Assembly: GCA_003602635.1 (NCBI GenBank) | Contig: QQSJ01000039.1 | Span: 1-46,060 of the forward strand | Direction: 5' to 3' | From: Candidatus Poseidoniales archaeon | Lineage (GTDB): Archaea; Thermoplasmatota; Poseidoniia; Poseidoniales; Poseidoniaceae | DNA: 46,060 bases | Shown here: positions 19,591 through 46,060 of the stretch, piece by piece | How the letters are laid out: each line of letters opens with the position of its first letter | Numbering within the stretch: position 1 is the stretch's first letter | Notes under the pieces: model-generated | What the model was told of the DNA's origin: nothing | Databases searched by the model: none | The model's input: only the letters and a program-made list of their open reading frames with translations | Program-made: the position numbers and the translations under genes

Positions 19591-19639
19591 GCGCCGAAGA
19601 CGTTTGGCTGAGCATTTCAATGATGCCCTGTCATGGGCT

Positions 19640-25393: not shown

Positions 25394-25524
25394 GGATGAC
25401 CCTCTGCCGAGCACCCTCGACGCTTTCTTTGCCCTCTGCGACGCTTAAGAGGGTGGTGGAGCGGTGTTCCGACGATGATTCGACCGCGAGGTTCATTGAC
25501 GCTCGCCGACGGCGCAATCAAGGC

Positions 25525-26384: not shown

Positions 26385-27437
26385 ATGGACGCCCGCATGC
26401 AACGCGCGGACCGTCCTTGCCGGGACGAGCAAGCCGTCAGCGAAGTGCTCGGCGTCATCATGCTTCTCGCCATGGTGATGACCATCATGGCCGGCGTCAT
26501 CGCCTTCCTGCAACCGTACCTCACGGACTTTGAGGACAACGTCAACTGGAAGAGCGCGAACGGCATTGCGGACCGGCTTGATGACCGGTTGGCCGTGGCA
26601 GGTGCTTCCCCCGAGGACGTGGGCGTACGGACGACCTTTGCGATTCAGTCCACAGAAATTCAGCCTCTGGACTTCATTGAAACCTGGAAGATCGAGGCTG
26701 ACCTGTCGCCCAATGACGCCATCGTGGTGGATCGCGTCGATGAATCGTCCTTCACGGTGAGCATGACCAACGGCACGGCGCGTTCCGCCAGCATCACCAC
26801 ACCGCTCGGGACGGAAACCCACGTCGTGGGCTTGGCGAACGCCACAGAACCCATTGAGCACGACGTCGGTTCCGAACATTGGTCGATCATCACGGTCTAC
26901 GATGCAGACGATCAAGCGATTCACCGCTCGGTGTCTTGGGTCCTGTCCGGCCTTGAGGTCAGCACAGAACTTGGCCAAGGCGACCACAGGATCGCCATGG
27001 TGAACCACGGGCGTGCTGAACGCTTTGGCGACGAGACATGGGACCTGCAACAGACCCCGTTGGTCCACCTTGACACGCTTGTCAACGGTGAAGTGCGGCT
27101 GACCATGGCGCTGAGGGACGTGACCACGACCGGCAGCATTGGGAGCGGACGCGTCCCGTTGGATTTCGTGTCCCTTGGCGGCCTGACCGTCTTTTCAGAA
27201 GAGGTCTGGAACCTGAGGTTCACCATGCGCAACGTCGTGGACCAGATCGTCACGCCCCAAATCCACGACGCGTGGCTGACCGACTACACGCTCAACCGTG
27301 CCGCAGGCACGCTTGACGAGCACGTGGGCATCAGTCCATGGCAGCGCGCCTCTGGAACCGACGGGTTCACGGTCCAAACGGCCGGCGCCCCCCTGCACTT
27401 CGAACTCGACGTGGCACGGATTGAGGTGAGGCGTTGA
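26385..27437 (+). CDS. Archaeal type IV pilin-like protein 1 (Pilin_N/DUF1628-type N-terminus), 350 aa
   Basis: Short charged leader MDARMQRADRPCRDEQ, then AVSEVLGVIMLLAMVMTIMAGVIAFL (compare canonical AVSPVIGVILMVAITVI). It starts 23 nt after the MBL stop, and its stop overlaps the next start (GTTGA). Confidence 0.65.
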   Translation: MDARMQRADRPCRDEQAVSEVLGVIMLLAMVMTIMAGVIAFLQPYLTDFEDNVNWKSANGIADRLDDRLAVAGASPEDVGVRTTFAIQSTEIQPLDFIETWKIEADLSPNDAIVVDRVDESSFTVSMTNGTARSASITTPLGTETHVVGLANATEPIEHDVGSEHWSIITVYDADDQAIHRSVSWVLSGLEVSTELGQGDHRIAMVNHGRAERFGDETWDLQQTPLVHLDTLVNGEVRLTMALRDVTTTGSIGSGRVPLDFVSLGGLTVFSEEVWNLRFTMRNVVDQIVTPQIHDAWLTDYTLNRAAGTLDEHVGISPWQRASGTDGFTVQTAGAPLHFELDVARIEVRR

Positions 27438-29608: not shown

Positions 29609-30087
29609 GCCGTCTTCGCAAAAACGAGGAAGGTGCTGCCACAGAGCTGGGCTACGTCTTCACCTTCCTCTTGGGCGTCGTGCTCCTCAGCGTCTTCGGC
29701 GTGTGGGCGTACAGCATCGAAACGGCCACCCGTGAACGCTGGAACAACGCCGCGATTCAAGCGAACCTCGACGATGTGGCGGAAGCCGTGGAGCGCGCGG
29801 ACGACGCTGCCCGCCTTGATGCGGGCTTGCGGTACGTGGAGCGCGTCGATTGGCGTCCTTCGGAGGCCGATGAAACCACGATGACGCTCGTGCTTCAGCA
29901 GGACGTGTTGCGGTTGGACCACGGCGCCGGTGATTTGGACGCAGAGGTGCTGCTGTCAGGCCTCGGCCCGGCCGCGCACGAAGGAGAAGTGGTGTTGGCT
30001 GGCGTCGAAGCGGTGTGGGTCATCTACGACCAAGGCGTCACGCGAATCGCCCTTATTCCCCCGTTGGACACGCTCAGCGGTTCATGA
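29605..30087 (+). CDS. Small pilin-like protein 3 (160 aa)
   Basis: ATG at 29605 overlaps the upstream stop (ATGA). Leader MSRLRKNEEG, then AATELGYVFTFLLGVVLLSVFGVWAY (pilin/TadE-like G-A-x-x-E-hydrophobic pattern). The 26 upstream codons of the track ORF are rejected. Confidence 0.55.
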   Translation: MSRLRKNEEGAATELGYVFTFLLGVVLLSVFGVWAYSIETATRERWNNAAIQANLDDVAEAVERADDAARLDAGLRYVERVDWRPSEADETTMTLVLQQDVLRLDHGAGDLDAEVLLSGLGPAAHEGEVVLAGVEAVWVIYDQGVTRIALIPPLDTLSGS

Positions 30088-32602: not shown

Positions 32603-32611
32603 GATCCAACC

Positions 32612-35600: not shown

Positions 35601-36937
35601 TTGCACGTACCCGAGTTGTTTTCGATGATGTTGTTGGCGAGGTACATCCGGTTGGCGCTGGGGGCGGGCACGCTCCAGCCTTGGTCCTTGTAGTGGTATT
35701 CGCCGAGCACCACTGGCTCACGCGCGGTGTCGTGAATGGTGTTGTTCTCGGCGATGACGTCAGACGAACCGTAGATCCACAGACCGTTGTAACCCTCAAT
35801 CGGGCCGATGTCGTTGTTGTACGCCTCGACGACGGAGGAACGAATGCCGAATCCGGAACCGCTGCTGGCTCCAGAAATGGAGTTCCCAGTGGCCGAGACG
35901 CGTGCGCCGTCGTAGGCCGTGATGCCGGCGCCTTCCTCGGTGAGGATGGTGTTGTCATCGATGTAGAGCGTGTGCTCAATGTCACCGGTTTGCTTGAACG
36001 AGTTGGTGTCGATCGCGTTGCACAGCGTCTCGACGCTGGAGTTGGTGAGCCAACCCGACGTGCCTCGCATGAAGACACCGTAGGCGTTGTCGCTGATGTC
36101 CAGGCGGTCCAAACGGATGTAGGAGTCCTCGGTGTAGATCATCGAGAATCCACCGCCTTGGTTGCCACACTGGGCTTCCGTGTCTCCGGTGAACGTGGAG
36201 TCAGAAACTTGCATCGTCGAGAGGATACCCAGCCCAGCACCGTAGGCTTGGATGGAGGCCGCCTTGTAGGACTGCTCGTCAACACCAAGCGTGAATGCAG
36301 AGTTGGTGATGGTCGGCGAGGCCGCGTTCAAGGCGATGATGTTGCTCGTGTTGATGTCCGTGAACGAAAGACCGTTCGCATCCATGCTCGCTCCGTCAAA
36401 GACCAAGGCTCCGAACAACCACTTCTGGGCGTTTGCAGAGTAAACCGGAATGCCGTAGGCCTTCTCAAAGTGAACAAAGTTGAGGCTGGTCAAGGCTTCG
36501 TCGATCGTGTCCCGCACGATCATTCCACCACCACAGGCAGCGTCTTGGTTGTAGAGGGGAGCCTGCCCGCCGGGAGAGTAGCACCATCCGTAGGCCGTGG
36601 CGTCCGCAGGCGTCCCCCAAAGGAAACGAACAGGAGAACTGGTGCTGCCTTGTGTTGCACCGCAATTGGCGTCACCTGCACAGATGGCGCCGCGAATTTG
36701 GAGGTATTTTCCAGCAGGCACGTTGACGGTTGTGCCGGCGTTGATGACCAACTTGGCACCTTCAGCCACGGTCACGTTTCCAGTCAAGGTGTGGGTCCCC
36801 GACCAGGTCTCTGTGCCGACCACGATGCCGGCCTTGGTCTCGTTGTTTGCAGAAACGGTTGGGACGGTGACCATCCCAACCATCAAAGACAGCAAGAGAA
36901 TGGTCACAAGGGAAAGGCTGCTGAAGGGTCGTGACAT
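32612..36937 (-). CDS. Giant surface protein (1441 aa): signal peptide, right-handed parallel beta-helix region, Ig-like modules, C-terminal TM anchor + acidic/Pro-rich tail
   Basis: ATG at 36937 verified (MSRPFSSLSLVTILLLSLMVGMVTVPTVSANN). PbH1-like repeats (ENNTIHDTAREPVVL, ANNIIENNSGT, IEDNTVSNNQGDAIRVNGGIVNVQGNTMETGDFAVRI). Cys-bounded Asp-rich motif CADGYDNDGDTKVDTDDEDC (34745..34822). TM helix MIWIIVGALLAVVVLAGVVLTFFV, then a 72-aa tail ending HPGWLWDAESNQWVPDPNYVPPTE. The 59 upstream codons of the track ORF are rejected. Confidence 0.8.
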   Translation of the reverse strand: MSRPFSSLSLVTILLLSLMVGMVTVPTVSANNETKAGIVVGTETWSGTHTLTGNVTVAEGAKLVINAGTTVNVPAGKYLQIRGAICAGDANCGATQGSTSSPVRFLWGTPADATAYGWCYSPGGQAPLYNQDAACGGGMIVRDTIDEALTSLNFVHFEKAYGIPVYSANAQKWLFGALVFDGASMDANGLSFTDINTSNIIALNAASPTITNSAFTLGVDEQSYKAASIQAYGAGLGILSTMQVSDSTFTGDTEAQCGNQGGGFSMIYTEDSYIRLDRLDISDNAYGVFMRGTSGWLTNSSVETLCNAIDTNSFKQTGDIEHTLYIDDNTILTEEGAGITAYDGARVSATGNSISGASSGSGFGIRSSVVEAYNNDIGPIEGYNGLWIYGSSDVIAENNTIHDTAREPVVLGEYHYKDQGWSVPAPSANRMYLANNIIENNSGTCNSNYMYGGDFPCPAIHVFMASATIEDNTVSNNQGDAIRVNGGIVNVQGNTMETGDFAVRISQFDDNYGNKYGSIGYFSDNTWTNATQVYNVTESRITVQSEFIPDVSSGYPVMLAWEGAECPYVTNECLQLPVSSEMPPRDMPLAIELVTNSTVFSYADLQNFDTSKIFVQNQNSEWGTQVRKGELVRYQVKAAGSNVADATVVIRDSVGLPLYELDTDPFGFTDFVSLPSDFLIDRNWNHVVGDTAVDVPGTPTVESIDENSCADGYDNDGDTKVDTDDEDCTNGREQAFYTVEAYKFGKGEKTFSFTLSGGVDDIINLDNLRPSVVVDQLDGSSFATTVTLTGSAWDGIAGSGSPGEYALDQIAYEKQFGIVKRVEVQPPGSQSWYSATDTSGANGVITKDNHPFKSWTFEWDLSGHPEGESDVTFRVRSFDGLDNSVQETRKYKLNLVAPTLILNEPLDGSTHRNGKVLFTGTASDPYVGVQGSDIQQIWFNITGPNDYFSHLYTQGQTAWEYQWNFEDLPSGEYTFEVWAADSDFCIDWPDGCNVERRTLIIENDNTPPFVTVDAYDAGGSLVIDGGILRADENTYLQGGALDNDGQVTRVEVQILDLASGILMSDEEIIVTQFLDNGGWQAIWDTSDYIHDQQYEITARAYDGEDYSEEVTRRVRIDNPVDKENNAPVFNGLDWPQTLTIFCDKYSNSIDRCGAGESIDLAAFFSDADVDSTLLIYDVFDDPATFEDDDYPAYITINARGVATYNPMDGMSQTTTEISEWSLEQVMFEAQDEYGSVAYSFRVNFLVRAVEFDVQKDSNEAFLDTGVPASFSGTGLPGSTVTVRSDAGGLRLNSTRVLSDGTWSMDVTINQLNSDSVTSVYFEMDGQQGNDMYELTPKAAAEGGVSMIWIIVGALLAVVVLAGVVLTFFVEYEDFEEEAMAAEAQVEEDPYAWAKKSAPAIPAQQNAAATPAAAGDGQHPGWLWDAESNQWVPDPNYVPPTE

Positions 36938-36973
36938 CGACACGGTATCCACCGTGCCTGCGTTGTCCAGACC

Positions 36974-36980
36974 GGATATA
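36974..36980 (-). promoter_or_regulatory. TATA-box-like element upstream of the beta-helix giant gene
   Basis: The minus strand reads TTATATC about 40 nt upstream of the ATG at 36937. This is one of very few AT-rich heptamers in the window, and the spacing fits an archaeal TATA box with a short 5' UTR. Not validated. Confidence 0.3.
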
Positions 36981-37027
36981 ACGCTGTGGGCCTTTTTGCG
37001 CCACGCAAGGTATCGGATTCTTCTGAT

Positions 37028-37046
37028 TGTATCATATTTTGATACA
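37028..37046. promoter_or_regulatory. Perfect 7-bp inverted repeat TGTATCA-TATTT-TGATACA in the largest intergenic gap
   Basis: Read directly from 37021 ttctgattgt atcatatttt gatacatcaa. It is the most AT-rich spot in the window, lying 26 nt downstream of the subtilase stop and ~95 nt upstream of the next ATG. On the minus strand a GGGCCGTTTTG tract (37047..37057) precedes it. It could be an operator, a second TATA/BRE region or a terminator. Confidence 0.35.
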
Positions 37047-37071
37047 TCAAAACGGCCCGCGACACAACGGC

Positions 37072-38265
37072 TCATTCGGCGGGAGGACAGGCCGGATCGA
37101 CCTGTTCGAACCATGCTTTTGCGTCCAACGTCCCGTACCCAGTGCGCGTGTCATGGTTGCTACCGAGGGCTTCGCGTAGCGCGAATTTGACGTGTTCGAT
37201 GCAACGGTCGTCGTCGACCATGAGTTCGGGATGTGCTTCCAAAATCATCGCAAGGGCTGAACTGACCAAGACGGTCGAGACCGACGTGCCGCTCGAAGCG
37301 TACCAAGCATCATCGGAACCTGTGGAGATGACGTTCACGCCGGGAGCGATGACCTCAGGCTTCTGGTTTGGAGATTCACCGCTGCCGTCACCCTGAGATG
37401 AATTGATCCAAATGGCGCCAGCCTCGTTGGATGCACCGACGGCGATGACGCGTGGGAGGAAGGCCGGTGAGGCCACCCGACCGTCGTCATCTTGGCCGCC
37501 GTCGTTGCCCGCAGCAGCCACCACGAACACGCCTTCGTCCAGGGCCCTTCGAACGGAGGAAACCACCACGTCACGTTCACCGTCCATCCGTTCTCCGCCA
37601 AGCGAGAGCGAAATCAAGTCTGCATTGAAACCGGTCCTGCACCAGTCAATGGCTTCAGCCACGATCACGTCATCACCGGTGTTGTCGCCGTCCACGTTCC
37701 CCGAGAGCGCAGCAGCTACGCCCAGGGTGACGCCCGGCACCGCACCCTTCTGGTGACCGTCGGACACCATGAGTCCGACCATCATGGTCCCGTGTGCAGT
37801 GGCTCCTCGGTCAAGAGGCTCAGAGGAAGACCCGACAAAGTCACGGAACTCAACGCGCTGACCCTCAAGCGCAGAGTGGGTGGTGTCAACACCTGTGTCC
37901 ACGACACACACACGCACCCCGGTCCCGTCATAGCCCTCATCAGCAAGTTCTCGCAAGCCCGAGTCCTCAAACGCCCATTCGGAATCTCCGAGCGGGATTT
38001 CCACGAGGAACCAACCCTGACTCGCGATGATGCCAACCAGAATCAGCAGGATGACCAGCCCAAGGGAGGATCGCGCCACATGACGTCGCCGCATGGGCAC
38101 CGAGGTGACCAGCGCCGGAGCCCAGCCCATGACTTCAGAGCGCCATTGGGCTTCATGCTGCACGGCAGAAGGGTCCACCGCGGTCAACATCCGGGGTTCC
38201 CCGGGTTCCGGGAGGAACTCCATTCCTTCCAACGCCGACGGCCTCACGGCTGTCATAAGCCCCAT
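37072..38265 (-). CDS. Membrane-anchored subtilisin-like serine protease (peptidase S8)
   Basis: Catalytic motifs VCVVDTGVD (Asp), HGTMMVGLM (His), AAAGNDG (oxyanion Asn) and SGTSVSTVLVSSALAMI (Ser). N-terminal TM helix LGLVILLILVGIIASQGWFLV follows RRRHVAR. I see no recognisable I9 propeptide. ATG at 38265 (25 nt after the AglB stop); internal ATGs are also possible. Confidence 0.9.
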   Translation of the reverse strand: MGLMTAVRPSALEGMEFLPEPGEPRMLTAVDPSAVQHEAQWRSEVMGWAPALVTSVPMRRRHVARSSLGLVILLILVGIIASQGWFLVEIPLGDSEWAFEDSGLRELADEGYDGTGVRVCVVDTGVDTTHSALEGQRVEFRDFVGSSSEPLDRGATAHGTMMVGLMVSDGHQKGAVPGVTLGVAAALSGNVDGDNTGDDVIVAEAIDWCRTGFNADLISLSLGGERMDGERDVVVSSVRRALDEGVFVVAAAGNDGGQDDDGRVASPAFLPRVIAVGASNEAGAIWINSSQGDGSGESPNQKPEVIAPGVNVISTGSDDAWYASSGTSVSTVLVSSALAMILEAHPELMVDDDRCIEHVKFALREALGSNHDTRTGYGTLDAKAWFEQVDPACPPAE

Positions 38266-38290: not shown

Positions 38291-41200
38291 TCAGAAGCGA
38301 CGGCTACCGGAACGAGACATGCTCAAACCGCCCCACGTCACCAATCCAACGATGGCCACAACGATCACGGCCAAGATGGTTTGACCCATGCCGCTGTTGC
38401 TTGTCGTGGTCTCGATGTTGAAGCGGATCTGGAAGTCGACGGGCTCATCGCCCGATCCTTCGGTGTCCGACGCGATCGTCGCATAGTCTTCGTCGTCGCC
38501 GGTCACCTCGATGTAGAACTCGAACCGCTTGTTGCCGTTGGTCATCTTGCCAACATCGAAGGCTGCGTCCACGGTCTCACCCGCTGGCACGCTGATGGTA
38601 ACCTGCTGGTAGTCCTGGTCCGCGTCTTGCTGGCGCGCATAGACAATCACGGAGTCGATGGCGTCACGCTCACCGCTGTTGGTCACAGGGATGACGATGG
38701 TCGTCGACTCCTGCTCGGCCGTGTTGTCGGAACGTTGAACGGCGAGGGATTGGTTCACGCTCAGGGAAATCTGCGCGTACACGACGGTCAAGGTCAGGCT
38801 GTCGCTGCTGCCGCCCACTTCTGACACACCCACGGTGATTTCGAGTTCACCGGATTCAAACGCCTCGTCAGAACGGACGTTGAACGCTTGCGAACGGCTG
38901 TCACCGGCGGCCACCGTGATGGTGCTCGTCGCTGGCGTCACTTCCCACAGCGTTGCATCGTAGTTCTGGACCACTTCGAACGTGTAGGTGGCGTCGCCGT
39001 TGCCCGTGTTGGTGAGCATCGTGGTGAGCGTCTGAACGTCACCGCTGCCAATGCCGGCGCGGTCGTCCATCGCTTCAACGTCAAAGCCACGCACGATTGG
39101 AACGCGAACCGTCACGGAGCGCTCGGTGAATTCTCCCGTTTCAGTCGTCAGGAGGACGTTCACGCTGTGTCCATTTTGCAGGGACAAGGACGTGTTCTGA
39201 TCGGGGAGGTTCACACGGACCTTCAGCGTCGCTTCCATCGGAACGTCGTCCGTGGACGCGTCTTCACCGATGCCGAGGCGAACCTCGATGGAGGATTGCC
39301 AGGTCTCCCCGGTCTCGTTCCAGAATTCAACGCTCCAGTCAGCAGCGTCAGGTGCGTTGCCCGCGTTTCCAGTGGCGGTGAAGACGTCCTCGAACTCGGT
39401 GCCGTCGTAGGTCACGTCCACCGTGAACTCCACGGCGGTGTGCTCGTAGGCTCCGTCTTGCTTCGCTTGGATGTCGACGCCGCTTTCGTCGTTCGTGAAG
39501 GATTCCACGGTGTCTTGGTCCACGGTCCCGACATCGACCAACAGGTCACGGTCGGCACGGCGGTCGAGCGTCAGCGTCAATTCTTGGCGGTCCGCTGCCA
39601 CGTTGGTCACGGTGCTGCCTTCGTAGCTCATGTTGAGCGCCAAGGCGTGCTGCACCGTCACCATGTCAGCCGCGAAGGAAACGCGCCCAGAGGGCACGAG
39701 GAGGCTGATGGCACCGTCTGCACCCAAGGTCACGTCCCAGGCCACTTCACCGTCGAGGTCCACCGTCACGGTGGGGGCCTCGCTGATCATCGAAGCGCCA
39801 TCGGAGGCGCTGCCAAGGTGGTACTCCACCAAGTCAATGCCCGTCCATGAGGTTTGCAAGTCAATGAAGCCGCCAATGGTCATGGTTTGGTTGAGGTGCC
39901 CACCAGAGCCAACGCTCGCGTCGAGCAGGTCGATGGCGACGGCTCCGTCGTTTTCACCAAGGTTCGCTTGCTGAACGACGACGACCCATGCGCCTGGTTC
40001 AACTTCCGCGCTCCAGGTCAACGTGGTTCCATCGAACGCCGTGTTGGTCACGGTGATCGCATCACGCGCCAAGCCAGAAGCGGGCTGCAGCACGACGGTG
40101 GCACCGTCGAGGCGGGTCGAATCAACGTCATCGATGACAGCACCGCTGACGTCGACCAGACCAACAGAGACCTGCAGGTCCTCGGACATCGCACTGTCGT
40201 TGACCACGTAGGATCCGTTGCCGTCAAGGTCGTACGCAATGTCTGCGAATCCTTCCTTGCTTCCTTCGACCTCGTAGGAGGTACGCACTGGAACGAAGAG
40301 TTGCCAGACACCGTTGTCGTCGGAGGTCACGTTGGACACAAAGGTCGTGCCGTCGAGGCTGGTGATGTTCATCAGCACACCCGAAACGCCCTCATCGGCG
40401 TCAGGCGTGTTGTCGTCGTCGAGGTCCCAATAGAGGCGGCCGCCGATTTCGACTTCATGGGATGCCATGAGGTCGGTCACGTTGAGCGACTCACCCGCGG
40501 CAACCGTGAACGGCGTGGCCGAGGTGTCGAGGGTCCAGCGGTCCTGAACGTCCTGTCGCTCCATGTGGACGGACCACGTACCGGGCATCATCGGCTCGGT
40601 CACGAGGCCGTCGTCGTCGGTCAGGTCCAAGGACACGTTGCCAAGACCGTGGGCCGAAACCAACGTCATCCGGAAGCCGGACAGGTTGCGTTCGCTGAGG
40701 GCCTCGCGCAGGTGCAGTTGCACCTCTGCAGACACGACGGTCGCCAAGGCAAGATCAACGCGAGCACTGTTCTCGCTGACCTGCACGGTTTGACGGAGGA
40801 GTTCCGTGCCGAGGTCGCCTTCGTAGGCGCCAATGACGGCGATCCAATCGCCGCTTGGGACGTAGTCGGCGAAGGTTCCGTTTTCGTCCACGTCGAGGCT
40901 GCGGTAGTCTTCTCCGTCGGAGGACACCAGCAACATGCTGTCGCCTTGCGGACGGAGTTCAGAGCCGTTGGCGTCGACGATTGAACCGTTCACACGCCAT
41001 TCGTCAACCAACGCCACATCGATGGCATCGCCGGGCAAGGGAAGGCCAACGACGATCGCTGACAGCGCCTGAGAGGGCGCCAGAGCGTAATCGCTGGCGT
41101 TTTCTGAAGCAGCGTCTTGCGCCTCGAATTCAAGGACGTAGGTGCCGATTGGCATGTCAACAGACAAGGTGCCGTTCGCTGCATACATGTCAGCGGTCAC

Positions 41201-44200
41201 GTTGATTCGCTCGCCATGCTCCGTGCTGGGCACGATCGCGAAGGCGGGGGTCACCATGCTTCCGTTGGACACGTTGCCGTCGCCGGCCACGTCTTGGAAG
41301 ACGTTGAACATCAGCGTGTGACCGCCGGGGTTCAGGTAGAGGCTGGCAGGTTCGTTGACCTGCTCGGGGCCGCGCGTCACGACGACATCGTCGTCGGACG
41401 TGGCGTTGTAGGTCACATCTTCCACGACGCTGATGTCGTAAACGCCAACTGGAAGGTGGTAGAGGAAACTGCCGTCCTCGTTGGACGTCGCTTGCCAGAC
41501 CACACCCTCAGCGCTGGTCGCGGTCATCTCAACCGGGACCCAACCTGGAATTTGGCTGTTCCACGTGGTGGAGTTGTCAATGTGGTAAAGGGCGCCAGTG
41601 ATCAGTTCGGTTGGCTCGATGATGATGTCGAGATCTTCCATACCGTCGGTGACGTTGACGAGGCTACCGTGTCCGTAGCTGGTGCTGATGGAATACATCG
41701 TCAGCGAGTAGGTCGCATCCGTTGGCACACGCATCGAGAACTGGCCTTGGTTGTCCGAGTTTGCATCGCCCGTGATGGCGGTGAAGGTCAAACCGTCCGC
41801 GCTTGTGGCCGTGACTTCCAATTGAGTCACGGCTTCGGTCTCACGCTCGGACTCCAACCACGCGTCGTAATCGACGCCAGCCATCGGTGCAGAGACCGTG
41901 CCGTTCAGCCACGTGGACGCCGCATACGTCATGGTGACGCCAAAGTCCTCCTCGCCGACATCAAGCCGAGCCAGAAGCAATTGGTCCGCGTCACCGTCGT
42001 CGGAGACGGTGTACATTCCAATGGGGACTTCCGCGTAGACAACGCCGTTCTCGTCGCTGACCACCACGTAGGGGTCGAGCTCCGGCGCGTCGTTGGTCAG
42101 CGTCACCGTACGGTTGGCCACGTCGAGGGTGGGTTGACCGTCGCCGCCGAAGGGCGCCTCAAGCTGGATGGTGACGTCGGTCATCGGCGGCACGGGGTAG
42201 GCCAGCGTGATGTTCTGAGGTTCGTCTTGAACGCTGAACGTCGCGTTGACTTCGTACCATCCGTCTTGATCGACGTCGACACGGTAGTAGTACTCACCAG
42301 AAGGAATCGGTCCTTGCGTGAAACTGCCGTTCTCATCGGTCACGATGGTGACGGCCGCGTCCAAACCGAGGCCGGTGTCCACCATTTCGATGATCGTGTT
42401 GGGCAGGATGTTGCCGTCCATGTCCTCAAGCACGTCAGCAAAGACGGCTCCGGGCATGGTCATTTCAAGGTCGTAGGAGGCCTCGATGCCCACTTCAACA
42501 GGGTCAGGCAGCAGGACGTTCCTGCCGTTCGGGAGAACAGCCACCATGTTGTAGACACCGGGGAGCAGGCCGGTCTTGTAGAAGGAACCGGGCTGGACCA
42601 TTGGACCCGAGAAGTCGCCTTGACCGGCGAACAGACCCGTTCCGTTGAGCGTCCCGACGCCTTCGAAGACGCCTGCGCCCTCAAAGGTCTGTCCAACCAC
42701 GTCCCTCACGACCACGGTGGGCGAGAGGGTCTCCACACGACCGCTGGCTTCGACCGTGCCTTCGAAGAGGTACTTCGTGGCGTTGTCCTCGCCGGTCATG
42801 GTGCACACAGAAGTGTTGTCAGGCGTGCGGGCGTTGTTGTCCAGACAGTCGCTGGCGTTGACGAGATCGGCTTCGCTGACCCAACCGTCAATGATGCCGC
42901 GACCGGTCCACGTTCCGTTTGCGGTGTGGATGCGGTCACCGGTCAACTGACGCGTGTAGGTTCCCGTGAATCCACGGGCCACGGCCACACCGTCGGACTC
43001 GAAGGTGCCGTTTTCGGTGAACGTGACTTCACCCGTGCCCTGGAGGATACGGGTTTCGTCGGTGGTGAACGAACCGTTGTTGGTGACGACCGTGTGGTTT
43101 TCGGTGTAGGACCAGATGTCACGGAGGATGAACGTCGTGTCGACCAGAGGCTCACCGGCAAAGGATTCGTCGCCGATCCACGTGACCACGCCGCTCACAC
43201 CGCTCGATGCCACGGAGACGTCGGCCGTGCGGTCGAGGGCAACCACCCGGTTGGCTTCGTCGGCGCTGACGTTGAGGTGAGACTCGCCCACCCAGGTCAT
43301 GTTGGCCACTTCGCCGAGGATGGCGGTGATGTCGTTGACGGTGCGGTCGTCGTTGTATTCAGCGAGGATGTCACCGAGGTTCTCGGTGAACGAACCGTCT
43401 TGAATCGCATTGCGCGCGGCCGTCGGCTCGTATTCGCCGATGAAGGCGCTCACACGGATGTGGCCAGCAGGCGCCATGAAACTGTAGCGCCCTTCAGCGT
43501 CCGTGTCAACGAAGCCAATGGGGATCCAGTAGGTGTCCTCGTCGAGGTCCTCGCCGGATTCTCCGGAGAAGGCGTCACGCTCGATGAGCAGACGCACGTT
43601 TTCCAACGGCTGCCCGTCGTCGGCGAAGGTGACCTGACCGGTCATCTCAGCACCTGGGTAGAACTTGAGGATCTTGACCATGGAGTTGGCTTGTCCGTAG
43701 GAGTTCTCGACCGTGGTGTCGTCGTTGTAATTGGCGAGCACGAAGTGGTTCATCATGGCACCAGGCAGAGGCAACGCTTGGGACATGAAGGTCCCAGGAG
43801 ACCCGCTTTGTCCGAAGTGCTGAGCCGGCTGTGGGTTGGAACCGTCGCTGGCCACGCCAAGCGTGGAGGCACCGTAACCGACGTAAGCACGTGCGACCAT
43901 GGTGTCGAAGAATTCGGCGGTGTGGTCGGCGCGCACGTCAATGATCTGCACCGGGTCAATCTCTGCACCGGCTTGCTGGTTGAGCACGTCCTGACGGATG
44001 GCTTCGTCTACTTCTTCGCGCGTCATCTCATCGGAGAACGCACCGCGTTGGGTTTCGTAGACTTCCGTGAGGAAAGTCGTCGGGTCCTGTCCAGAAAGGA
44101 TGGTCGGGGCTGCGAAGATGCCCATCGGTTGCCCGCCGTTGTACTGTGCGTCCGCAGTGTAGCGACCCGCACGGGGGTAGAGGCGGTTGTCCACGGCAAA

Positions 44201-46060
44201 GTAGCGGATTTCGTGGTCGCGGTCCACGGTCTGACCGGGTGCGCCTTCGTAATCCTGAACGGTGTATTGGCCTTCGAGACCAATCACGCTGGTGTAGAGC
44301 TCCATCATGTTCGCCTCAGACAGGCCCTGAACGAGCAACTGCACGGTCATGGCCAGACGAGCGTTTGAACGGTGGATGTGGGTCGACACGGAGTTGAACT
44401 CTTCAGCGAGGTCGGCCGTGTACCAGTAGTCGCCAAACACATAGTGCGTGACTTCGAAGGTGGTGTCGGTCTGCAAGCGCACGTTGTTGTTGAAGGTCCG
44501 GTTCGCGTCCTCTTGGGACAGGAAATCCGTGCCGTCACAGGAACTGGCCAGGCTCTCGGCGCAGGCGAGAATCTCGCCGTCCTTCCAAAGACGCCATCGG
44601 TCATCGGAACTGCTCGTTCCGTCGTCGTTGAGCTTGTGACCCTGGGTCATCACGGTGTCACGGTTGGTCTGCACCACGGAGAAGGACGCGTCAAGCACCT
44701 CGACGGGGAGGCTGAGGTCGCGCTCTTCGCCCTCAATGAGGCGGGTGACGTCGGTGAATTCGGTGCCGTCGTTGATGTCCAAGAGGGCATCGTACTGTGC
44801 ATCGGTGAGGTGTTCCTGCAGAATGGCGTCGAACGCAGGCGTGAAGATCGTCTCATGGCCACGGTCCGAGGCATACATACGGTCAGCCTCAGCGAGTTGC
44901 CAGAACCACATGGCCGCCAAGTCGGCTTCGCCACGTGCGAGGAGCATGTTTCCTGTGGCGGGGATACCCGACTGGAAGTTGTCAGAAACGGAGGGGTGGT
45001 CGCCAGAGGTCAAGGCTTGGAAACCGTAGTCCCACCACGACACGAAGGCGGGCTTCTCAGAATACGGTTGTTCGGCGTCTTGTTCAGCGAGCCATGCATA
45101 CGCATCGTTCCATCCCTGTTGGTTGAAACTGCTGCCGAAGGAACCGAGGTAGCGCATGCCACCGTCCTCGTACCCGGTCGGGTTCAGGAAGGAGAAGCCT
45201 GCAACGTCCCAGCGGAGGATGTCGGGCATGATGTTGAACAACGTCTCGTCGATGTCATCCTCGGCTGGAGAAGAGCCGGGGATACCTGCGTCAAGACCGT
45301 AGGTCATGTGCTGGCCACCAAGCATGATCAGAACGAGCATGATGGCGCTGAACTGAGGCGTGCGCCAAACGGCCTTGCGCGTGGCCGTGATCCGGTCAGC
45401 AGGCGTACGAACACCCATGCGCCGCATCTTTCGGGACATTTCCTTGGTGCCAGACCAGCCCCAGAGACCCACGGCGCCCCACGCGCCAAGCACGGCCAAA
45501 GCCGGAGTGGCGTTGAAGATGAAACGGGCAGCTGTCCAGGACATGAAGATGGCCAGAAGGACCCACGTGGCCATGAAGATGTGCTCATGGCGTCGCTGGC
45601 GCGTTCCGCGCCACAGCGCGATGATGCCCATGCTGAGGGCCAAGATGAACACGATTGGTCCAAACGATGCAAAGAGCAGTCCACGGTCCGGAGCGTTGGC
45701 TTCGGCGACCGTGCCGAAAATCTTGGTCTTGGTGAAGTATCCAGCGCCCGTGAACAACACGTTGAACGCGTTGGATTGCTCGAAGTACTGGAGCACCCAA
45801 ATCACGACCACGAAGACGACGGCGGCTCCGGTCAGGGAACCGAGCACGAGCAACCACGGCTTGTCTCGGAAGCCCGTGGTCACGTAAGCGATGGCCGTCG
45901 TGAATCCGAGCACGAAGAGCAAGGGCTGGAGGCCCGTACCGCTGAAGACCAAGTCCATGCCAGGGTAGGCGTAGAACGGCATGGCGAGCAGCAACGTCGT
46001 GCACAGCATGGTCAACATGAGCATGTTGAGCGTCGTGCTGTCCTTGTTGCGGAACATGTT
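38291..46060 (-). CDS. aglB: Oligosaccharyltransferase AglB/STT3 fused to a ~1900-aa extracellular repeat array with a C-terminal TM anchor; 5' end probably beyond window
   Basis: At least 2589 codons are open to the window edge. A polytopic TM region is followed by FVSWWDYGFQ (WWDYG at 45023..45037, verified). Then come many CarboxypepD_reg/Cna-B-like modules (e.g. VLEDMDGNILPNTIIEMVD...IVTDENGSFTQGPIPSGEYYYRV; SNEDGSFLYHLPVGVYDISV; SDDNGVWQLFVPVRTSYEVE) and CARDB-like modules (LTNTGNGDATYTFEV; IPVTNSGERDAIDSVIVYA). The C-terminus has a Thr/Ser linker and a TM helix ILAVIVVAIVGLVTWGG plus a basic tail. Confidence 0.85.
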   Translation of the reverse strand, partial: NMFRNKDSTTLNMLMLTMLCTTLLLAMPFYAYPGMDLVFSGTGLQPLLFVLGFTTAIAYVTTGFRDKPWLLVLGSLTGAAVVFVVVIWVLQYFEQSNAFNVLFTGAGYFTKTKIFGTVAEANAPDRGLLFASFGPIVFILALSMGIIALWRGTRQRRHEHIFMATWVLLAIFMSWTAARFIFNATPALAVLGAWGAVGLWGWSGTKEMSRKMRRMGVRTPADRITATRKAVWRTPQFSAIMLVLIMLGGQHMTYGLDAGIPGSSPAEDDIDETLFNIMPDILRWDVAGFSFLNPTGYEDGGMRYLGSFGSSFNQQGWNDAYAWLAEQDAEQPYSEKPAFVSWWDYGFQALTSGDHPSVSDNFQSGIPATGNMLLARGEADLAAMWFWQLAEADRMYASDRGHETIFTPAFDAILQEHLTDAQYDALLDINDGTEFTDVTRLIEGEERDLSLPVEVLDASFSVVQTNRDTVMTQGHKLNDDGTSSSDDRWRLWKDGEILACAESLASSCDGTDFLSQEDANRTFNNNVRLQTDTTFEVTHYVFGDYWYTADLAEEFNSVSTHIHRSNARLAMTVQLLVQGLSEANMMELYTSVIGLEGQYTVQDYEGAPGQTVDRDHEIRYFAVDNRLYPRAGRYTADAQYNGGQPMGIFAAPTILSGQDPTTFLTEVYETQRGAFSDEMTREEVDEAIRQDVLNQQAGAEIDPVQIIDVRADHTAEFFDTMVARAYVGYGASTLGVASDGSNPQPAQHFGQSGSPGTFMSQALPLPGAMMNHFVLANYNDDTTVENSYGQANSMVKILKFYPGAEMTGQVTFADDGQPLENVRLLIERDAFSGESGEDLDEDTYWIPIGFVDTDAEGRYSFMAPAGHIRVSAFIGEYEPTAARNAIQDGSFTENLGDILAEYNDDRTVNDITAILGEVANMTWVGESHLNVSADEANRVVALDRTADVSVASSGVSGVVTWIGDESFAGEPLVDTTFILRDIWSYTENHTVVTNNGSFTTDETRILQGTGEVTFTENGTFESDGVAVARGFTGTYTRQLTGDRIHTANGTWTGRGIIDGWVSEADLVNASDCLDNNARTPDNTSVCTMTGEDNATKYLFEGTVEASGRVETLSPTVVVRDVVGQTFEGAGVFEGVGTLNGTGLFAGQGDFSGPMVQPGSFYKTGLLPGVYNMVAVLPNGRNVLLPDPVEVGIEASYDLEMTMPGAVFADVLEDMDGNILPNTIIEMVDTGLGLDAAVTIVTDENGSFTQGPIPSGEYYYRVDVDQDGWYEVNATFSVQDEPQNITLAYPVPPMTDVTIQLEAPFGGDGQPTLDVANRTVTLTNDAPELDPYVVVSDENGVVYAEVPIGMYTVSDDGDADQLLLARLDVGEEDFGVTMTYAASTWLNGTVSAPMAGVDYDAWLESERETEAVTQLEVTATSADGLTFTAITGDANSDNQGQFSMRVPTDATYSLTMYSISTSYGHGSLVNVTDGMEDLDIIIEPTELITGALYHIDNSTTWNSQIPGWVPVEMTATSAEGVVWQATSNEDGSFLYHLPVGVYDISVVEDVTYNATSDDDVVVTRGPEQVNEPASLYLNPGGHTLMFNVFQDVAGDGNVSNGSMVTPAFAIVPSTEHGERINVTADMYAANGTLSVDMPIGTYVLEFEAQDAASENASDYALAPSQALSAIVVGLPLPGDAIDVALVDEWRVNGSIVDANGSELRPQGDSMLLVSSDGEDYRSLDVDENGTFADYVPSGDWIAVIGAYEGDLGTELLRQTVQVSENSARVDLALATVVSAEVQLHLREALSERNLSGFRMTLVSAHGLGNVSLDLTDDDGLVTEPMMPGTWSVHMERQDVQDRWTLDTSATPFTVAAGESLNVTDLMASHEVEIGGRLYWDLDDDNTPDADEGVSGVLMNITSLDGTTFVSNVTSDDNGVWQLFVPVRTSYEVEGSKEGFADIAYDLDGNGSYVVNDSAMSEDLQVSVGLVDVSGAVIDDVDSTRLDGATVVLQPASGLARDAITVTNTAFDGTTLTWSAEVEPGAWVVVVQQANLGENDGAVAIDLLDASVGSGGHLNQTMTIGGFIDLQTSWTGIDLVEYHLGSASDGASMISEAPTVTVDLDGEVAWDVTLGADGAISLLVPSGRVSFAADMVTVQHALALNMSYEGSTVTNVAADRQELTLTLDRRADRDLLVDVGTVDQDTVESFTNDESGVDIQAKQDGAYEHTAVEFTVDVTYDGTEFEDVFTATGNAGNAPDAADWSVEFWNETGETWQSSIEVRLGIGEDASTDDVPMEATLKVRVNLPDQNTSLSLQNGHSVNVLLTTETGEFTERSVTVRVPIVRGFDVEAMDDRAGIGSGDVQTLTTMLTNTGNGDATYTFEVVQNYDATLWEVTPATSTITVAAGDSRSQAFNVRSDEAFESGELEITVGVSEVGGSSDSLTLTVVYAQISLSVNQSLAVQRSDNTAEQESTTIVIPVTNSGERDAIDSVIVYARQQDADQDYQQVTISVPAGETVDAAFDVGKMTNGNKRFEFYIEVTGDDEDYATIASDTEGSGDEPVDFQIRFNIETTTSNSGMGQTILAVIVVAIVGLVTWGGLSMSRSGSRRF
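45023..45037 (-). other. WWDYG catalytic motif of STT3/AglB
   Basis: The plus strand reads acc gta gtc cca cca. The reverse complement is TGG TGG GAC TAC GGT, which is WWDYG, in frame with the giant ORF. Confidence 0.9.

What the first reader, a model, noticed from the sequence alone, without database searches (positions are those of the whole stretch)
38291..46060. AglB/STT3 oligosaccharyltransferase fused in one ORF to a ~1900-aa surface repeat array with a second membrane anchor
Seen: one uninterrupted minus-strand ORF of at least 2589 codons. Its N-terminal ~340 aa are polytopic TM helices ending in the STT3 catalytic motif WWDYG. The external part then continues through roughly 15-20 Ig-like modules (CarboxypepD_reg/Cna-B-like, then CARDB-like). 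It ends in a Thr/Ser linker, a TM helix and the basic tail SRSGSRRF, so the protein would be anchored at both ends. Established: characterised archaeal AglB enzymes are roughly 600-1000 aa with a compact C-terminal globular domain. Also seen: the extension carries more than 30 N-x-S/T sequons (NVSADE, NHTVVT, NGSFTT, NGTWTG, NITLAY, NRTVTL, NVTDGM, NITSLD ...). Inference: the enzyme's own tail is probably a major glycosylation substrate, and the protein may double as an envelope or S-layer-like scaffold that places the OST within the cell wall. I do not know of a described OST with this architecture.
Basis: partly seen in the sequence, partly recalled or inferred. Interest (0 to 1): 0.72.

Follow-up and report, generated by a model that had tools for sequence, protein, structure and literature searches.

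The report
Giant double-anchored archaeal N-glycosylation enzyme
The window holds most of a ~3,200-residue version of the archaeal N-glycosylation enzyme AglB, whose outer end is a long, sugar-site-rich chain of about 17 beta-sandwich modules tied back to the membrane; this form is real, is the normal one in Marine Group II archaea and many relatives, and I found no paper that describes it.

Summary
Window 38291-46060 (-) is one uninterrupted frame of 2589 codons with the STT3 motifs TVAE and WWDYG. After a periplasmic domain comes an all-beta ectodomain of about 1,750 aa, then a C-terminal TM helix and a basic tail.

The ORF is cut by the window edge. Full-length homologues are 3,150-3,230 aa, so about 611 N-terminal residues are missing. 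These include an extra ~8-TM domain and the first STT3 helices with the catalytic Asp and DxH.

It is not an assembly artefact. More than 120 protein clusters from independent assemblies are collinear, synteny is conserved, and dN/dS is 0.03-0.14 in every region.

The host is Marine Group II (Ca. Poseidoniales). Shorter giant AglBs (2,000-2,800 aa, same C-terminal anchor) occur widely in other Thermoplasmatota, including cultured Aciduliprofundum. The fusion is therefore ancient and is the normal form in this lineage. Ten literature searches found no description of it.

Sequons in the ectodomain are twice the expected number (39 vs 16.7, z = 6.1). Nineteen positions are conserved, and they cluster in the middle of the tail.

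It is not a sequence repeat array, and no archaeosortase signal was found. An envelope or coat role for the tail is plausible but untested.

The parts
45161..46060 (-). C-terminal part of the STT3 transmembrane domain (window aa 1-~300). The ORF continues beyond the window edge; about 611 residues are missing.
   Evidence: NCBIfam TIGR04154 aligns aa 2-379 to model positions 230-574 of 831. The same residues within the P0001 STT3-core query lie in the stretch that aligns to A. fulgidus AglB-L 3WAJ (E = 4.7e-12). Hydropathy of P0001.
45701..45712 (-). TVAE, the TIXE-type catalytic motif of external loop 5.
   Evidence: Aligned to TIAE of 3WAJ. T and E are invariant in 117 homologues. Coordinates.
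45023..45037 (-). WWDYG motif.
   Evidence: Invariant in 117 of 117 MGII homologues and present in 203 of 203 group-2 proteins. Aligned to WWDYG of 3WAJ, 3VU0 and 3VGP.
43679..45073 (-). AglB periplasmic (catalytic-associated) domain, aa 330-794. It has a mixed alpha/beta fold with a lineage-specific insert (aa ~430-566). It contains the conserved RYFAVDNRLYP...MGIFAAP segment, which is a candidate for the DK/MI position. It ends in a conserved, poorly structured stretch (aa 730-794).
   Evidence: AF2 model 1. Conservation profile. Weak Pfam AglB_core-like match (17.4 bits). Almost no sequons.
38417..43678 (-). Ectodomain chain of about 17-18 divergent beta-sandwich modules (aa 795-2548).
   Evidence: AF2 models, pLDDT 79 and 86, all-beta. 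Foldseek finds CnaB-type pilins, SdrD B domains, the TIE protein, the H. volcanii S-layer protein 7PTP, and MG-domain arrays of alpha-2-macroglobulins, all at low TM-score. No internal BLAST repeats. dN/dS 0.05-0.14.
42227..42424 (-). Best CarboxypepD_reg (transthyretin-like) module, aa 1213-1278. It contains the invariant DVDQDGWY, a DxDxDG-type putative Ca-binding loop.
   Evidence: Pfam PF13620, 44.6 bits. Invariant columns. Coordinates.
42608..43072 (-). Highly conserved module built of very long beta-strands (aa 997-1151), with an invariant Cys pair (C1072, C1086) and several conserved sequons.
   Evidence: DSSP of model 1 shows strands of 14-26 residues. Invariant C743/C757 in the alignment. 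Cys positions. Sequon conservation.
38813..39037 (-). E-set / CARDB-like Ig module, aa 2342-2416.
   Evidence: Pfam PLipase_C_C 24.9 bits and FixG_C. CARDB or NPCBM_assoc in the precomputed Pfam of homologues and in group-2 proteins.
38294..38386 (-). C-terminal TM helix (aa ~2559-2583) and basic cytoplasmic tail ending in a Phe that is invariant in the 13-sequence alignment and >=90% conserved in the 39-sequence one. The stop codon is at 38291-38293.
   Evidence: Helix 1120-1144 in model 2. Hydropathy. F1150, G1138, G1139 and R1144 are invariant; F1150 is nearly invariant. All MGII-clade representatives end in F.
37072..38265 (-). Co-oriented gene 25 nt downstream. It encodes an S8 subtilase with an N-terminal signal-anchor helix, so the catalytic domain should be extracellular. 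The adjacency is conserved in MGII.
   Evidence: Pfam Peptidase_S8, E = 2.8e-33. Sequence with TM segment. Same neighbour in L008 (85% identity) and L016 (45% identity).
32612..37114 (-). Next gene in the conserved cluster: a 1500-aa type I membrane protein with a beta-helix, Big domains, a signal peptide and a C-terminal TM helix.
   Evidence: Pfam Beta_helix, Big_7. TM segments and a conserved cytoplasmic tail. Synteny.

Best explanation
This is the lineage-typical oligosaccharyltransferase AglB of a Marine Group II (Ca. Poseidoniales, Poseidoniaceae-type) archaeon.

**Shown**
- A catalytically intact STT3-type membrane domain is followed, in one conserved polypeptide of about 3,200 aa, by the usual external WWDYG-bearing domain.
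- About 1,750 aa of divergent beta-sandwich modules follow, then a C-terminal TM helix.
- The whole protein is under strong purifying selection.
- The fusion is shared collinearly with 2.0-2.8 kaa AglBs of other Thermoplasmatota, so it is old.

**Inferred from established STT3 topology (C-terminal domain outside) and the positive-inside rule**
- The tail is extracellular and anchored at both ends. It forms a large loop or arch on the cell surface.

**Inferred from sequon statistics**
- The middle of that loop is N-glycosylated, by the same enzyme or by neighbouring copies.
- The catalytic domain and the membrane-proximal last ~300 aa stay bare.

**Most likely role (hypothesis)**
- The tail is a structural, glycan-bearing component of the cell's outer protein coat. 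It keeps the OST embedded in, and at a fixed distance under, that coat. One gene product would thus both make and carry surface N-glycans.

**How the confidence splits**
- Identity and architecture: about 0.9.
- Glycosylated external loop: about 0.7.
- Coat/scaffold role: about 0.35.
- The single figure given is for the statement as a whole.
For: **Identity**
- NCBIfam archaeo_STT3 match. PF02516 STT3 in full-length homologues and in the upstream part of L008. PDB 3WAJ at E = 4.7e-12.
- GGSDPWY, ADHD and TVAE align to D47, D161/H163 and TIXE of 3WAJ. D405, D520/H521, T728/E731 and WWDYG are invariant in 117 homologues.

**The fusion is real**
- More than 120 clusters of 3,150-3,230 aa from ENA, JGI, NCBI, TARA and Logan cover 97-100% of the query. 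20 GTDB loci match.
- The order purD - giantAglB - S8 - 1500 aa protein - STAND is conserved at 45% identity.
- dN/dS is 0.03-0.14 in all six regions against three relatives.

**The fusion is ancient**
- 248 representatives score E < 1e-30. Group-2 proteins of 2.0-2.8 kaa nearly all have a C-terminal TM helix and basic tail.
- Their extensions are weakly but collinearly similar to this one (P0139 E = 1e-5 over aa 1334-2440; P0170 E = 8e-8).
- They come from Aciduliprofundum sp. MAR08-339, Methanomassiliicoccales and Thermoplasmata MAGs.

**Glycosylation**
- 39 sequons against 16.7 +/- 3.7 in shuffles. The family mean is 44 against 21.6 outside, and 4.0 against 3.9 in the membrane part. 19 sequon columns are conserved in at least 80% of homologues.
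- Sequons are concentrated at P0001 aa 1500-2900.

**Fold**
- All-beta models resemble adhesin/pilin stalks, the H. volcanii S-layer protein and MG-domain arrays.

**Context**
- S-layer-less Thermoplasmatales have an unidentified ~20 nm outer protein layer (PMC12448462).
Against: - Nothing here measures expression level, glycan occupancy or envelope location.
- A coat protein made 1:1 with a 21-TM enzyme would be costly.
- dN/dS in the tail is nearly as low as in the catalytic core. This is unusual for exposed coat proteins and could point instead to a specific molecular function.
- Methanomassiliicoccales versions are not sequon-enriched (17 vs 13.3; 13 vs 12.8), so glycan display cannot be the universal reason for the tail.
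- No cultured Thermoplasmatales sensu stricto (Thermoplasma, Cuniculiplasma and others) appeared among named hits. The link to their outer layer is therefore only an analogy.
- The DK/MI Ser/Thr-pocket motif could not be identified.
- Whether this is the only OST in the genome was not tested.
Confidence: 0.55

Rival explanations
1. Precursor model. The ORF encodes a polyprotein-like precursor. After membrane insertion, an extracellular protease (for example the co-encoded membrane-anchored S8 subtilase) cuts between AglB's periplasmic domain and the beta-sandwich chain. This releases a normal-sized OST and a separate, C-terminally anchored, N-glycosylated surface (S-layer-like) protein. That protein would use the last STT3 TM helix in place of a signal peptide.
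For: - A membrane-anchored extracellular S8 gene lies 25 nt downstream, co-oriented. The adjacency is conserved in MGII at 45% identity.
- A conserved but poorly structured stretch (aa 730-794, pLDDT 47-70, many invariant residues) sits exactly at the junction.
- The tail has the hallmarks of archaeal S-layer glycoproteins: an Ig-like array, sequons, and a C-terminal TM helix with a basic tail. 7PTP is among the Foldseek hits.
Against: - The S8 gene is not adjacent in Aciduliprofundum, although the fusion is present there.
- No split (two-gene) versions were seen among 700 relatives. The shorter entries examined look like contig-end fragments.
- There is no direct evidence of cleavage.
- The junction may be poorly modelled only because the TM domain was left out of the model.
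Confidence: 0.15
2. Built-in accessory-module model. The tail and its C-terminal TM helix act like the non-catalytic, single-pass, beta-sandwich-rich subunits of eukaryotic OST (ribophorins, OST48) or like NOMO of the translocon-associated BOS complex. The last helix would pack against the STT3 domain. The beta-sandwich chain would hold or present nascent secreted proteins, or dock the enzyme to the Sec translocon.
For: - Purifying selection in the tail is almost as strong as in the core (dN/dS 0.05-0.14).
- Weak Pfam matches to NOMO1-like_9th and NOMO_5th appear here and in relatives.
- The MGII clade has a conserved GG and a C-terminal Phe (invariant in 13 sequences, >=90% in 39) in the last TM/tail, together with a clade-specific extra N-terminal 8-TM domain. 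This suggests intramolecular contacts.
- The catalytic domain and the membrane-proximal modules are free of sequons, as expected for interfaces.
Against: - No Foldseek hit to ribophorin, OST48 or NOMO structures appeared among the top 50.
- The NOMO matches reflect the generic transthyretin-like fold.
- About 17 modules is far more than a chaperone platform needs.
- The C-terminal TM helix is on the whole less conserved than the rest (0.51 majority fraction).
- Forms of 1.4 kaa without a second anchor exist.
Confidence: 0.15
3. Adhesin or particle-capture model. The tail is a stalk that binds polymers, particles or other cells. Its fusion to AglB would be incidental membrane anchoring.
For: The best structural matches are Gram-positive pilins, SdrD, large adhesin stalks and the TIE protein. 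There are DxDxDG-type Ca-binding motifs typical of rigid adhesin rods.
Against: - Both ends are membrane-anchored, so there is no free tip.
- No recognisable ligand-binding domain was found.
- There are no sequence repeats or length variation typical of adhesins. Length is fixed at 3,150-3,230 aa across the order.
- dN/dS is very low.
- The fusion is conserved across lineages with very different lifestyles.
Confidence: 0.07
4. Artefact model. A chimeric assembly or hidden frameshift joins an ordinary AglB gene to a neighbouring surface-protein gene.
For: None found. The window is 60% G+C, a composition in which long spurious ORFs do occur on other strands (for example 41117-44368 +).
Against: - Hundreds of independent assemblies give the same collinear 3.2 kaa protein.
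- A complete cultured genome has the 2,081-aa form.
- dN/dS is uniformly low across the junction.
- The junction region is among the best conserved parts.
Confidence: 0.01

Closest known systems
AglB-L of Archaeoglobus fulgidus (PDB 3WAJ/5GMY) and other characterised archaeal AglBs (GT66; 590-1,050 aa by my recollection)
   Same: The STT3 membrane domain is homologous (E = 4.7e-12). The catalytic Asp in EL1, the DxH motif, the TIXE-type motif and WWDYG are all present. An external C-terminal domain follows the last STT3 helix.
   Different: This protein is 3-4 times longer. It has an extra ~8-TM N-terminal domain (MGII clade only) and a ~220-aa insert in the periplasmic domain. About 1,750 aa of beta-sandwich modules and a second membrane anchor follow. 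No recognisable DK, variant-DK or MI motif was found.
2.0-2.8 kaa 'STT3 domain-containing / carboxypeptidase regulatory-like' proteins of Thermoplasmatota (e.g. Aciduliprofundum sp. MAR08-339, 2,081 aa; Methanomassiliicoccales; Thermoplasmata MAGs)
   Same: The architecture is the same: STT3, WWDYG, CarboxypepD_reg/SdrD_B/NOMO-like modules, a CARDB-like module, then a C-terminal TM helix and basic tail. Identity in the core is 29-38%, and the tail is weakly but collinearly similar.
   Different: They lack the N-terminal 8-TM domain, the periplasmic insert, about 500 aa of tail and the invariant terminal Phe. They have different gene neighbours. Sequon enrichment varies by lineage. None has been studied experimentally, as far as the searched literature shows.
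Archaeal S-layer glycoproteins such as Haloferax volcanii csg (PDB 7PTP)
   Same: Both have a chain of Ig-like domains, many N-glycosylation sites and a C-terminal membrane anchor. 7PTP is among the Foldseek matches.
   Different: Csg is a separate secreted protein with its own signal peptide and a PGF-CTERM/archaeosortase lipid anchor. Here there is no signal peptide and no PGF motif, and the N-terminal end stays attached to an enzyme. Lattice formation is unknown.
Eukaryotic OST accessory subunits (ribophorin I/II, OST48) and NOMO of the BOS complex
   Same: In concept, luminal or external beta-sandwich domains held by a single C-terminal TM helix next to a membrane machine for secretory proteins. 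Weak Pfam matches to NOMO-like transthyretin domains exist.
   Different: Those are separate polypeptides. No specific sequence or structural match was obtained. The resemblance is an analogy recalled from knowledge, not a tested homology.
MG-domain arrays of alpha-2-macroglobulins (E. coli ECAM 5A42, Salmonella 4U48)
   Same: They are the best Foldseek E-values for the C-terminal half (2e-17). Both are long chains of MG-like beta-sandwiches.
   Different: TM-scores are only 0.08-0.13. There is no helical thioester domain in the all-beta model and no CxEQ motif.

Membership tests
AglB / STT3 oligosaccharyltransferase (GT66) | Multi-pass N-terminal membrane domain homologous to STT3 (Pfam PF02516) | tested here: met
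   - The window part aligns to TIGR04154 positions 230-574 (60 bits; below the 450-bit subfamily cut-off, and the protein is truncated).
- PF02516 scores 62.8 bits in the upstream part of L008 and is precomputed in nearly all full-length homologues.
- 3WAJ matches at E = 4.7e-12.
AglB / STT3 oligosaccharyltransferase (GT66) | Catalytic acidic residue in external loop 1 and second DxD/DxH motif (metal site) | tested here: met
   Both lie outside the window, in the missing N-terminal part. In P0001 (94% identical) GGSD405PWY aligns to GGND47PWY, and AD520H521D aligns to ND161H163H of 3WAJ. They are invariant in 117 homologues. For the window's own gene this is inferred from relatives.
AglB / STT3 oligosaccharyltransferase (GT66) | TIXE/SVSE motif in external loop 5 | tested here: met
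   TVAE at window aa 117-120 aligns to TIAE of 3WAJ. T and E are invariant.
AglB / STT3 oligosaccharyltransferase (GT66) | WWDXG motif at the start of the external C-terminal domain | tested here: met
   WWDYG at aa 342-346. Invariant in 117 of 117 homologues. Aligned to 3WAJ, 3VU0 and 3VGP.
AglB / STT3 oligosaccharyltransferase (GT66) | DK (DxxKxxx[MI]), variant DK (E<>Kxxx[MIP]) or MI (MxxIxxx[IVW]) motif forming the Ser/Thr pocket (definitions from PMC3703281) | tested here: inconclusive
   No stretch fits any of the three consensus patterns. The conserved RYFAVDNRLYP...(M/L)GIFAAPTIL segment (aa 619-655) is a positional candidate, but it is poorly modelled (pLDDT < 50 at model residues 287-296 and 321-328). 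The profile search against PDB aligned only the WWDYG region.
AglB / STT3 oligosaccharyltransferase (GT66) | Oligosaccharyltransferase activity | not testable with these tools
   Activity is inferred only from invariant catalytic residues and dN/dS of 0.03-0.08 in the core.
Archaeosortase A substrates (PGF-CTERM) / TIGR04154 archaeosortase-associated STT3 subfamily | PGF tripeptide before a C-terminal TM helix and basic tail; full-length score above the subfamily cut-off | tested here: not met
   There is no PGF anywhere in the protein. No PGF-CTERM model was hit in NCBIfam at E <= 0.1. TIGR04154 scores 60 bits against a cut-off of 450.
Alpha-2-macroglobulin / thioester-containing proteins | Thioester domain with CxEQ and bait region among MG domains | tested here: not met
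   No CxEQ motif. Model 2 is all-beta with no helical toroid. Foldseek TM-scores are 0.08-0.13.
Archaeal S-layer protein | Forms the outer paracrystalline lattice; very high abundance | not testable with these tools
   Only fold-level resemblance (7PTP) and sequon richness were found.
Tandem-repeat surface adhesins | Recognisable sequence repeats and variable repeat number between strains | tested here: not met
   There are no self-hits at E <= 1. Length is fixed at 3,150-3,230 aa across more than 120 clusters.

The most novel reading that the evidence does not exclude
The giant AglB is itself a principal building block of the outer glycoprotein coat of Poseidoniales and other Thermoplasmatota. 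It would be a two-point-anchored arch of about 17 modules that the enzyme glycosylates on itself or on its neighbours. It would then explain the unidentified ~20 nm 'exterior protein layer' seen on S-layer-less relatives, and would be the first case of an oligosaccharyltransferase that is also the structural scaffold it decorates. A variant of this reading treats it as a fused prokaryotic counterpart of the accessory subunits of the eukaryotic OST complex.
Probability: 0.15. Interest if true: 0.8.

Novelty: new variant of a known kind. Interest (0 to 1): 0.55.

Why it matters
Marine Group II archaea are among the most abundant archaea in the surface ocean. They are uncultured and their cell envelope is unknown.

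All of them apparently make their N-glycosylation enzyme as a 3,200-residue, double-anchored, sugar-site-rich surface protein, and cultured relatives (Aciduliprofundum, Methanomassiliicoccales) carry a 2,000-residue version. That gives a concrete, testable candidate for an envelope component. It also extends the known range of OST architectures well beyond the 600-1,050 aa enzymes on which current models rest.

The gene has been sitting in databases under generic names, so pointing it out could redirect annotation. It could also prompt glycoproteomic and cryo-ET work in organisms that can already be grown.

Tried and rejected
- **Assembly or frameshift artefact:** rejected.
- **Recent tandem repeats:** rejected; no self-similarity by BLAST.
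- **Paralogy with the other giant ORFs of the window:** rejected; no BLAST hits to p1924, p1824, p1500, p803 or p724.
- **PGF-CTERM / archaeosortase sorting signal:** not found.
- **Alpha-2-macroglobulin identity for the C-terminal half:** rejected; no thioester motif or helical domain.
- **Identity of the MGII-specific N-terminal 8-TM domain:** Pfam at E <= 10 and PDB sequence search gave only noise.
- **Locating the DK/MI motif by profile search against PDB:** only the WWDYG region aligned.
- **Structure prediction with locus-derived alignment A1:** It was redone with database proteins (A3, A4).
- **Cultured Thermoplasmatales among named homologues of P0238 and P0338:** only MAGs, Aciduliprofundum and Methanomassiliicoccales appeared.
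- **Vinogradov 2012 paper on T. acidophilum glycoproteins:** not held.
- **tRNA and Rfam scans of the window:** nothing found.


Full report
**1. What is in the sequence**

The minus strand of 38294-46060 is a single frame of 2589 sense codons, closed by TGA at 38291-38293. It does not begin in the window. The 'ATG' listed at 46057 is simply the first Met after the window edge.

The closest database protein, P0001 (94% identity, 100% of the query covered), is 3200 aa. The window protein starts at its residue ~612.

- WWDYG is at aa 342-346, after polytopic hydrophobic helices.
- All eight quoted sequon strings are present.
- A C-terminal hydrophobic helix (aa ~2559-2583) is followed by SRSGSRRF.

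**2. It is a real gene, not an assembly product**

- More than 120 protein clusters (90% identity level) from ENA, JGI, NCBI, TARA and Logan assemblies are 3,150-3,230 aa long. They align over 97-100% of the query at 45-94% identity. 20 GTDB species-representative loci carry the gene.
- Gene order is the same in relatives at 85% (L008) and 45% (L016) identity: purD, then the giant gene, an S8 subtilase, a ~1,500-aa beta-helix protein and an 840-aa STAND ATPase.
- Nei-Gojobori dN/dS against three relatives is 0.03-0.14 in each of six regions, including the junction and the tail.
- A majority-residue profile over 117 full-length homologues shows conservation along the entire length. It is highest in the STT3 core and at P0001 1150-1650.

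**3. Organism and distribution**

Source names and GTDB record titles place the gene in Marine Group II / Ca. Poseidoniales; the closest named hit is a Ca. Poseidoniaceae archaeon.

An exhaustive HMMER search with the STT3 core plus periplasmic domain found 700 representatives at E < 1e-3 and 248 at E < 1e-30. They fall into two length classes:
- **Group 1:** about 3,150-3,230 aa, with STT3 beginning near residue 350-400 (the MGII clade).
- **Group 2:** about 2,000-2,800 aa, with STT3 beginning near the N-terminus and 29-38% identity.

Almost every complete member of both classes ends in a TM helix and a basic tail. Among proteins I hold that have WWDxG and a C-terminal TM helix, 188 are 2.0-2.2 kaa and 130 are 3.0-3.4 kaa.

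Named group-2 members come from several sources:
- Thermoplasmata and Thermoplasmatota MAGs;
- Methanomassiliicoccales and Methanomassiliicoccus sp.;
- the complete genome of cultured Aciduliprofundum sp. MAR08-339 (P0313, 2,081 aa, 'putative membrane protein, required for N-linked glycosylation').

Their Pfam content is STT3, three or four CarboxypepD_reg, SdrD_B, NOMO-like modules, and CARDB or NPCBM_assoc near the end.

BLAST shows three shared regions with the window protein: the TM core, the second half of the periplasmic domain, and weak but collinear similarity through the tail. The fusion is therefore old and orthologous, not a local accident.

The shorter entries I examined look like contig-end fragments. 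Two forms of ~1.4 kaa lack the second anchor.

**4. The enzyme part**

The TM core of P0001 aligns to A. fulgidus AglB-L (3WAJ) at E = 4.7e-12. Three motifs line up:

| This protein | 3WAJ |
|---|---|
| GGSD405PWY | GGND47PWY |
| AD520H521D | ND161H163H |
| T728VAE731 | TIAE |

These residues and WWDYG are invariant in all 117 MGII homologues. Of these motifs only TVAE and WWDYG lie inside the window.

The external domain after WWDYG (aa 330-794) is modelled as mixed alpha/beta. It has a poorly conserved insert (P0001 1001-1150) that group-2 proteins lack.

I could not place the DK/MI motif. None of the three consensus patterns given in PMC3703281 fits. A profile search against PDB aligned only the WWDYG region.

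The MGII clade has in addition about 350 N-terminal residues with ~8 predicted helices and no detectable relatives. This part lies outside the window.

**5. The tail**

Two AlphaFold2 models were built on 39-sequence alignments: aa 330-1489 (mean pLDDT 79.1) and aa 1440-2589 (mean pLDDT 86.4). From aa ~795 they show an unbroken succession of beta-sandwich modules, ending in a helix at aa 2559-2583.

Segmenting the strand lists by eye gives about 17-18 modules. This includes an unusual, highly conserved module of 14-26-residue strands (aa 997-1151) with an invariant Cys pair.

Foldseek against PDB returns two kinds of match:
- For the first half: CnaB-type pilins, SdrD B domains, the B. anthracis TIE protein, adhesin stalks and the H. 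volcanii S-layer protein.
- For the second half: MG-domain arrays of alpha-2-macroglobulins and complement proteins.

All have TM-scores of 0.05-0.18 (query-normalised; up to 0.28 normalised to short targets). This is similarity of domain type, not of the whole protein. There is no thioester motif and no helical domain.

The modules are not sequence repeats, and the tail is unrelated to the other giant ORFs of the window. Two invariant DxDxDG-type motifs (DVDQDGWY, YWDLDDDNTPDADEG) suggest Ca-stabilised modules. That is an inference from sequence.

**6. Sequons**

- The external part has 39 N-x-S/T. 2000 shuffles gave 16.7 +/- 3.7 with a maximum of 29.
- Across 117 homologues the external part averages 44 against 21.6 expected. 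The membrane part is at expectation (4.0 vs 3.9).
- 19 sequon columns are kept in at least 80% of sequences, although most are only ~47% identical to P0001.
- The sites are almost absent from AglB's own periplasmic domain and from the last ~300 aa. They are dense at P0001 1500-2900. This fits a loop whose two membrane-proximal feet are bare and whose middle is glycosylated.
- The enrichment is not unique to this protein. Other secreted proteins of the window show it, and Methanomassiliicoccales homologues do not.

**7. Topology and mechanism**

It is established that the STT3 C-terminal domain is extracytoplasmic. The final helix is followed by three Arg, so by the positive-inside rule the tail should cross back and end in the cytoplasm. 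The ~2,200 residues in between are therefore external and tethered at both ends (inference).

I consider it most likely that this is the working OST of the lineage, and that its tail is a glycosylated structural element of the outer protein coat. This keeps the enzyme within the coat.

Gaines et al. 2025 (PMC12448462) describe an unidentified, unordered ~20 nm 'exterior protein layer' on S-layer-less Thermoplasmatales. The giant AglB is a reasonable candidate type for such a layer. However, I could not show that those particular species carry it.

**8. Rivals**

- **(a) Precursor cleaved at the conserved, poorly structured junction (aa 730-794).** The membrane-anchored extracellular S8 subtilase is encoded 25 nt downstream. 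This adjacency is MGII-specific.
- **(b) Built-in analogue of eukaryotic OST accessory subunits or NOMO.** This fits the very low dN/dS of the tail and the clade-specific conserved GG...F end. It has no specific structural support.
- **(c) Adhesin.** This is disfavoured by the double anchoring, the fixed length and the absence of any binding domain.
- **(d) Artefact.** This is refuted.

**9. Novelty**

Ten full-text searches found no description of an AglB of this size or architecture. They combined AglB, STT3 or oligosaccharyltransferase with Marine Group II, Poseidoniales, Thermoplasmata, Aciduliprofundum, Methanomassiliicoccales and carboxypeptidase-regulatory. A 2024 review of archaeal N-glycosylation does not mention one. 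One metatranscriptome study lists an MGII 'oligosaccharyltransferase' among differentially transcribed genes without comment.

The library does not include most subscription journals, notably Nikolayev et al. 2020. Absence of a description is therefore not proven.

The proteins themselves are abundantly catalogued under generic names. I therefore class this as a new variant of a known kind: real, conserved and apparently unremarked, but the normal form in its lineage.

**10. Limits**

- No abundance, glycan-occupancy or localisation data were available.
- The copy number of STT3 genes per genome was not tested.
- Domain boundaries are approximate.
- The inter-domain arrangement is not predicted (pTM 0.46).
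- The catalytic N-terminal motifs are inferred from relatives, because they lie outside the window.

Noticed in passing
outside the window (P0001 aa 1-350; L008:8168-9220): The MGII-clade giant AglBs carry an extra N-terminal domain of ~350 aa with about 8 predicted TM helices ahead of STT3 TM1. Group-2 relatives lack it. It has no Pfam or PDB sequence match.
   Followed up: partly
window 38294-38386 (-): Every MGII-clade member I inspected ends in a C-terminal Phe (...RF or ...PF) after the TM helix and basic tail; in the 39-sequence alignment the column is >=90% conserved. A conserved GG sits at the cytoplasmic end of the helix. Group-2 proteins end in plain R/K runs. This may be a docking motif for a cytoplasmic partner or for the clade-specific N-terminal domain.
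   Followed up: partly
window 30074-38265 (-): A conserved MGII gene cluster lies downstream of the giant AglB. It comprises a membrane-anchored S8 subtilase (37072-38265) and a 1500-aa signal-peptide/beta-helix/Big protein (32612-37114). That protein has a C-terminal TM helix and a conserved cytoplasmic tail HPGW(L/I)WD...WVPDP(N/D)Y. The third gene is an HTH-AAA-TPR STAND ATPase (30074-32602). The same order is found at 45% identity, but not in Aciduliprofundum.
   Followed up: partly
window 42608-43072 (-): One module of the tail (aa 997-1151) is modelled as six very long beta-strands (14-26 residues). It is among the most conserved parts of the whole protein. It holds an invariant Cys pair and several invariant sequons. 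No specific structural match was obtained.
   Followed up: no
window 43679-43873 (-): A stretch at the junction between AglB's periplasmic domain and the first beta-sandwich (aa 730-794, including PQPAQHFGQSGSPG and LPLPGAMMNHF) is highly conserved. It is predicted with little secondary structure and low confidence. It may be an interface with the omitted TM domain or a processing site.
   Followed up: no
window 14146-19620 (-) and 19640-25414 (-): Two further giant ORFs (1824 and 1924 aa) have N-terminal signal-like helices and acidic composition. The second is sequon-enriched (25 vs 11.9). Almost no Pfam matches were found (only a weak TSP3_bac). They are unrelated to the AglB tail.
   Followed up: partly
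window 26385-29608 (+): Two adjacent genes with archaeal type IV pilin-like N-termini (Pilin_N weak; DUF7289 at 28.5 bits) lie between the giant surface-protein genes.
   Followed up: no
window 9833-11368 (-): A 511-aa family-2 glycosyltransferase with C-terminal membrane segments lies about 27 kb from aglB. It is a possible N-glycan assembly enzyme. No compact agl gene cluster flanks aglB; upstream in relatives are purD and CDP-archaeol synthase.
   Followed up: no
L005 (CAXRAI010000019.1): A contig carrying this archaeal gene at 84% identity belongs to a MAG labelled 'Salinimicrobium sp.' (a bacterium). This is probably a mis-binned contig or a mislabelled MAG.
   Followed up: no
P0353, P0355, P0432, P0436 (relatives): Methanomassiliicoccales giant AglBs are not sequon-enriched (17 vs 13.3; 13 vs 12.8). 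Two ~1.4 kaa Thermoplasmatota forms have a shorter tail and no second anchor. These may be intermediates in the evolution of the architecture.
   Followed up: partly
window 41117-44368 (+) and other long opposite-strand ORFs: Long ORFs (up to 1083 aa) lie on the strand opposite the AglB gene. They are most likely shadow ORFs of a 60% G+C coding region and not genes.
   Followed up: no
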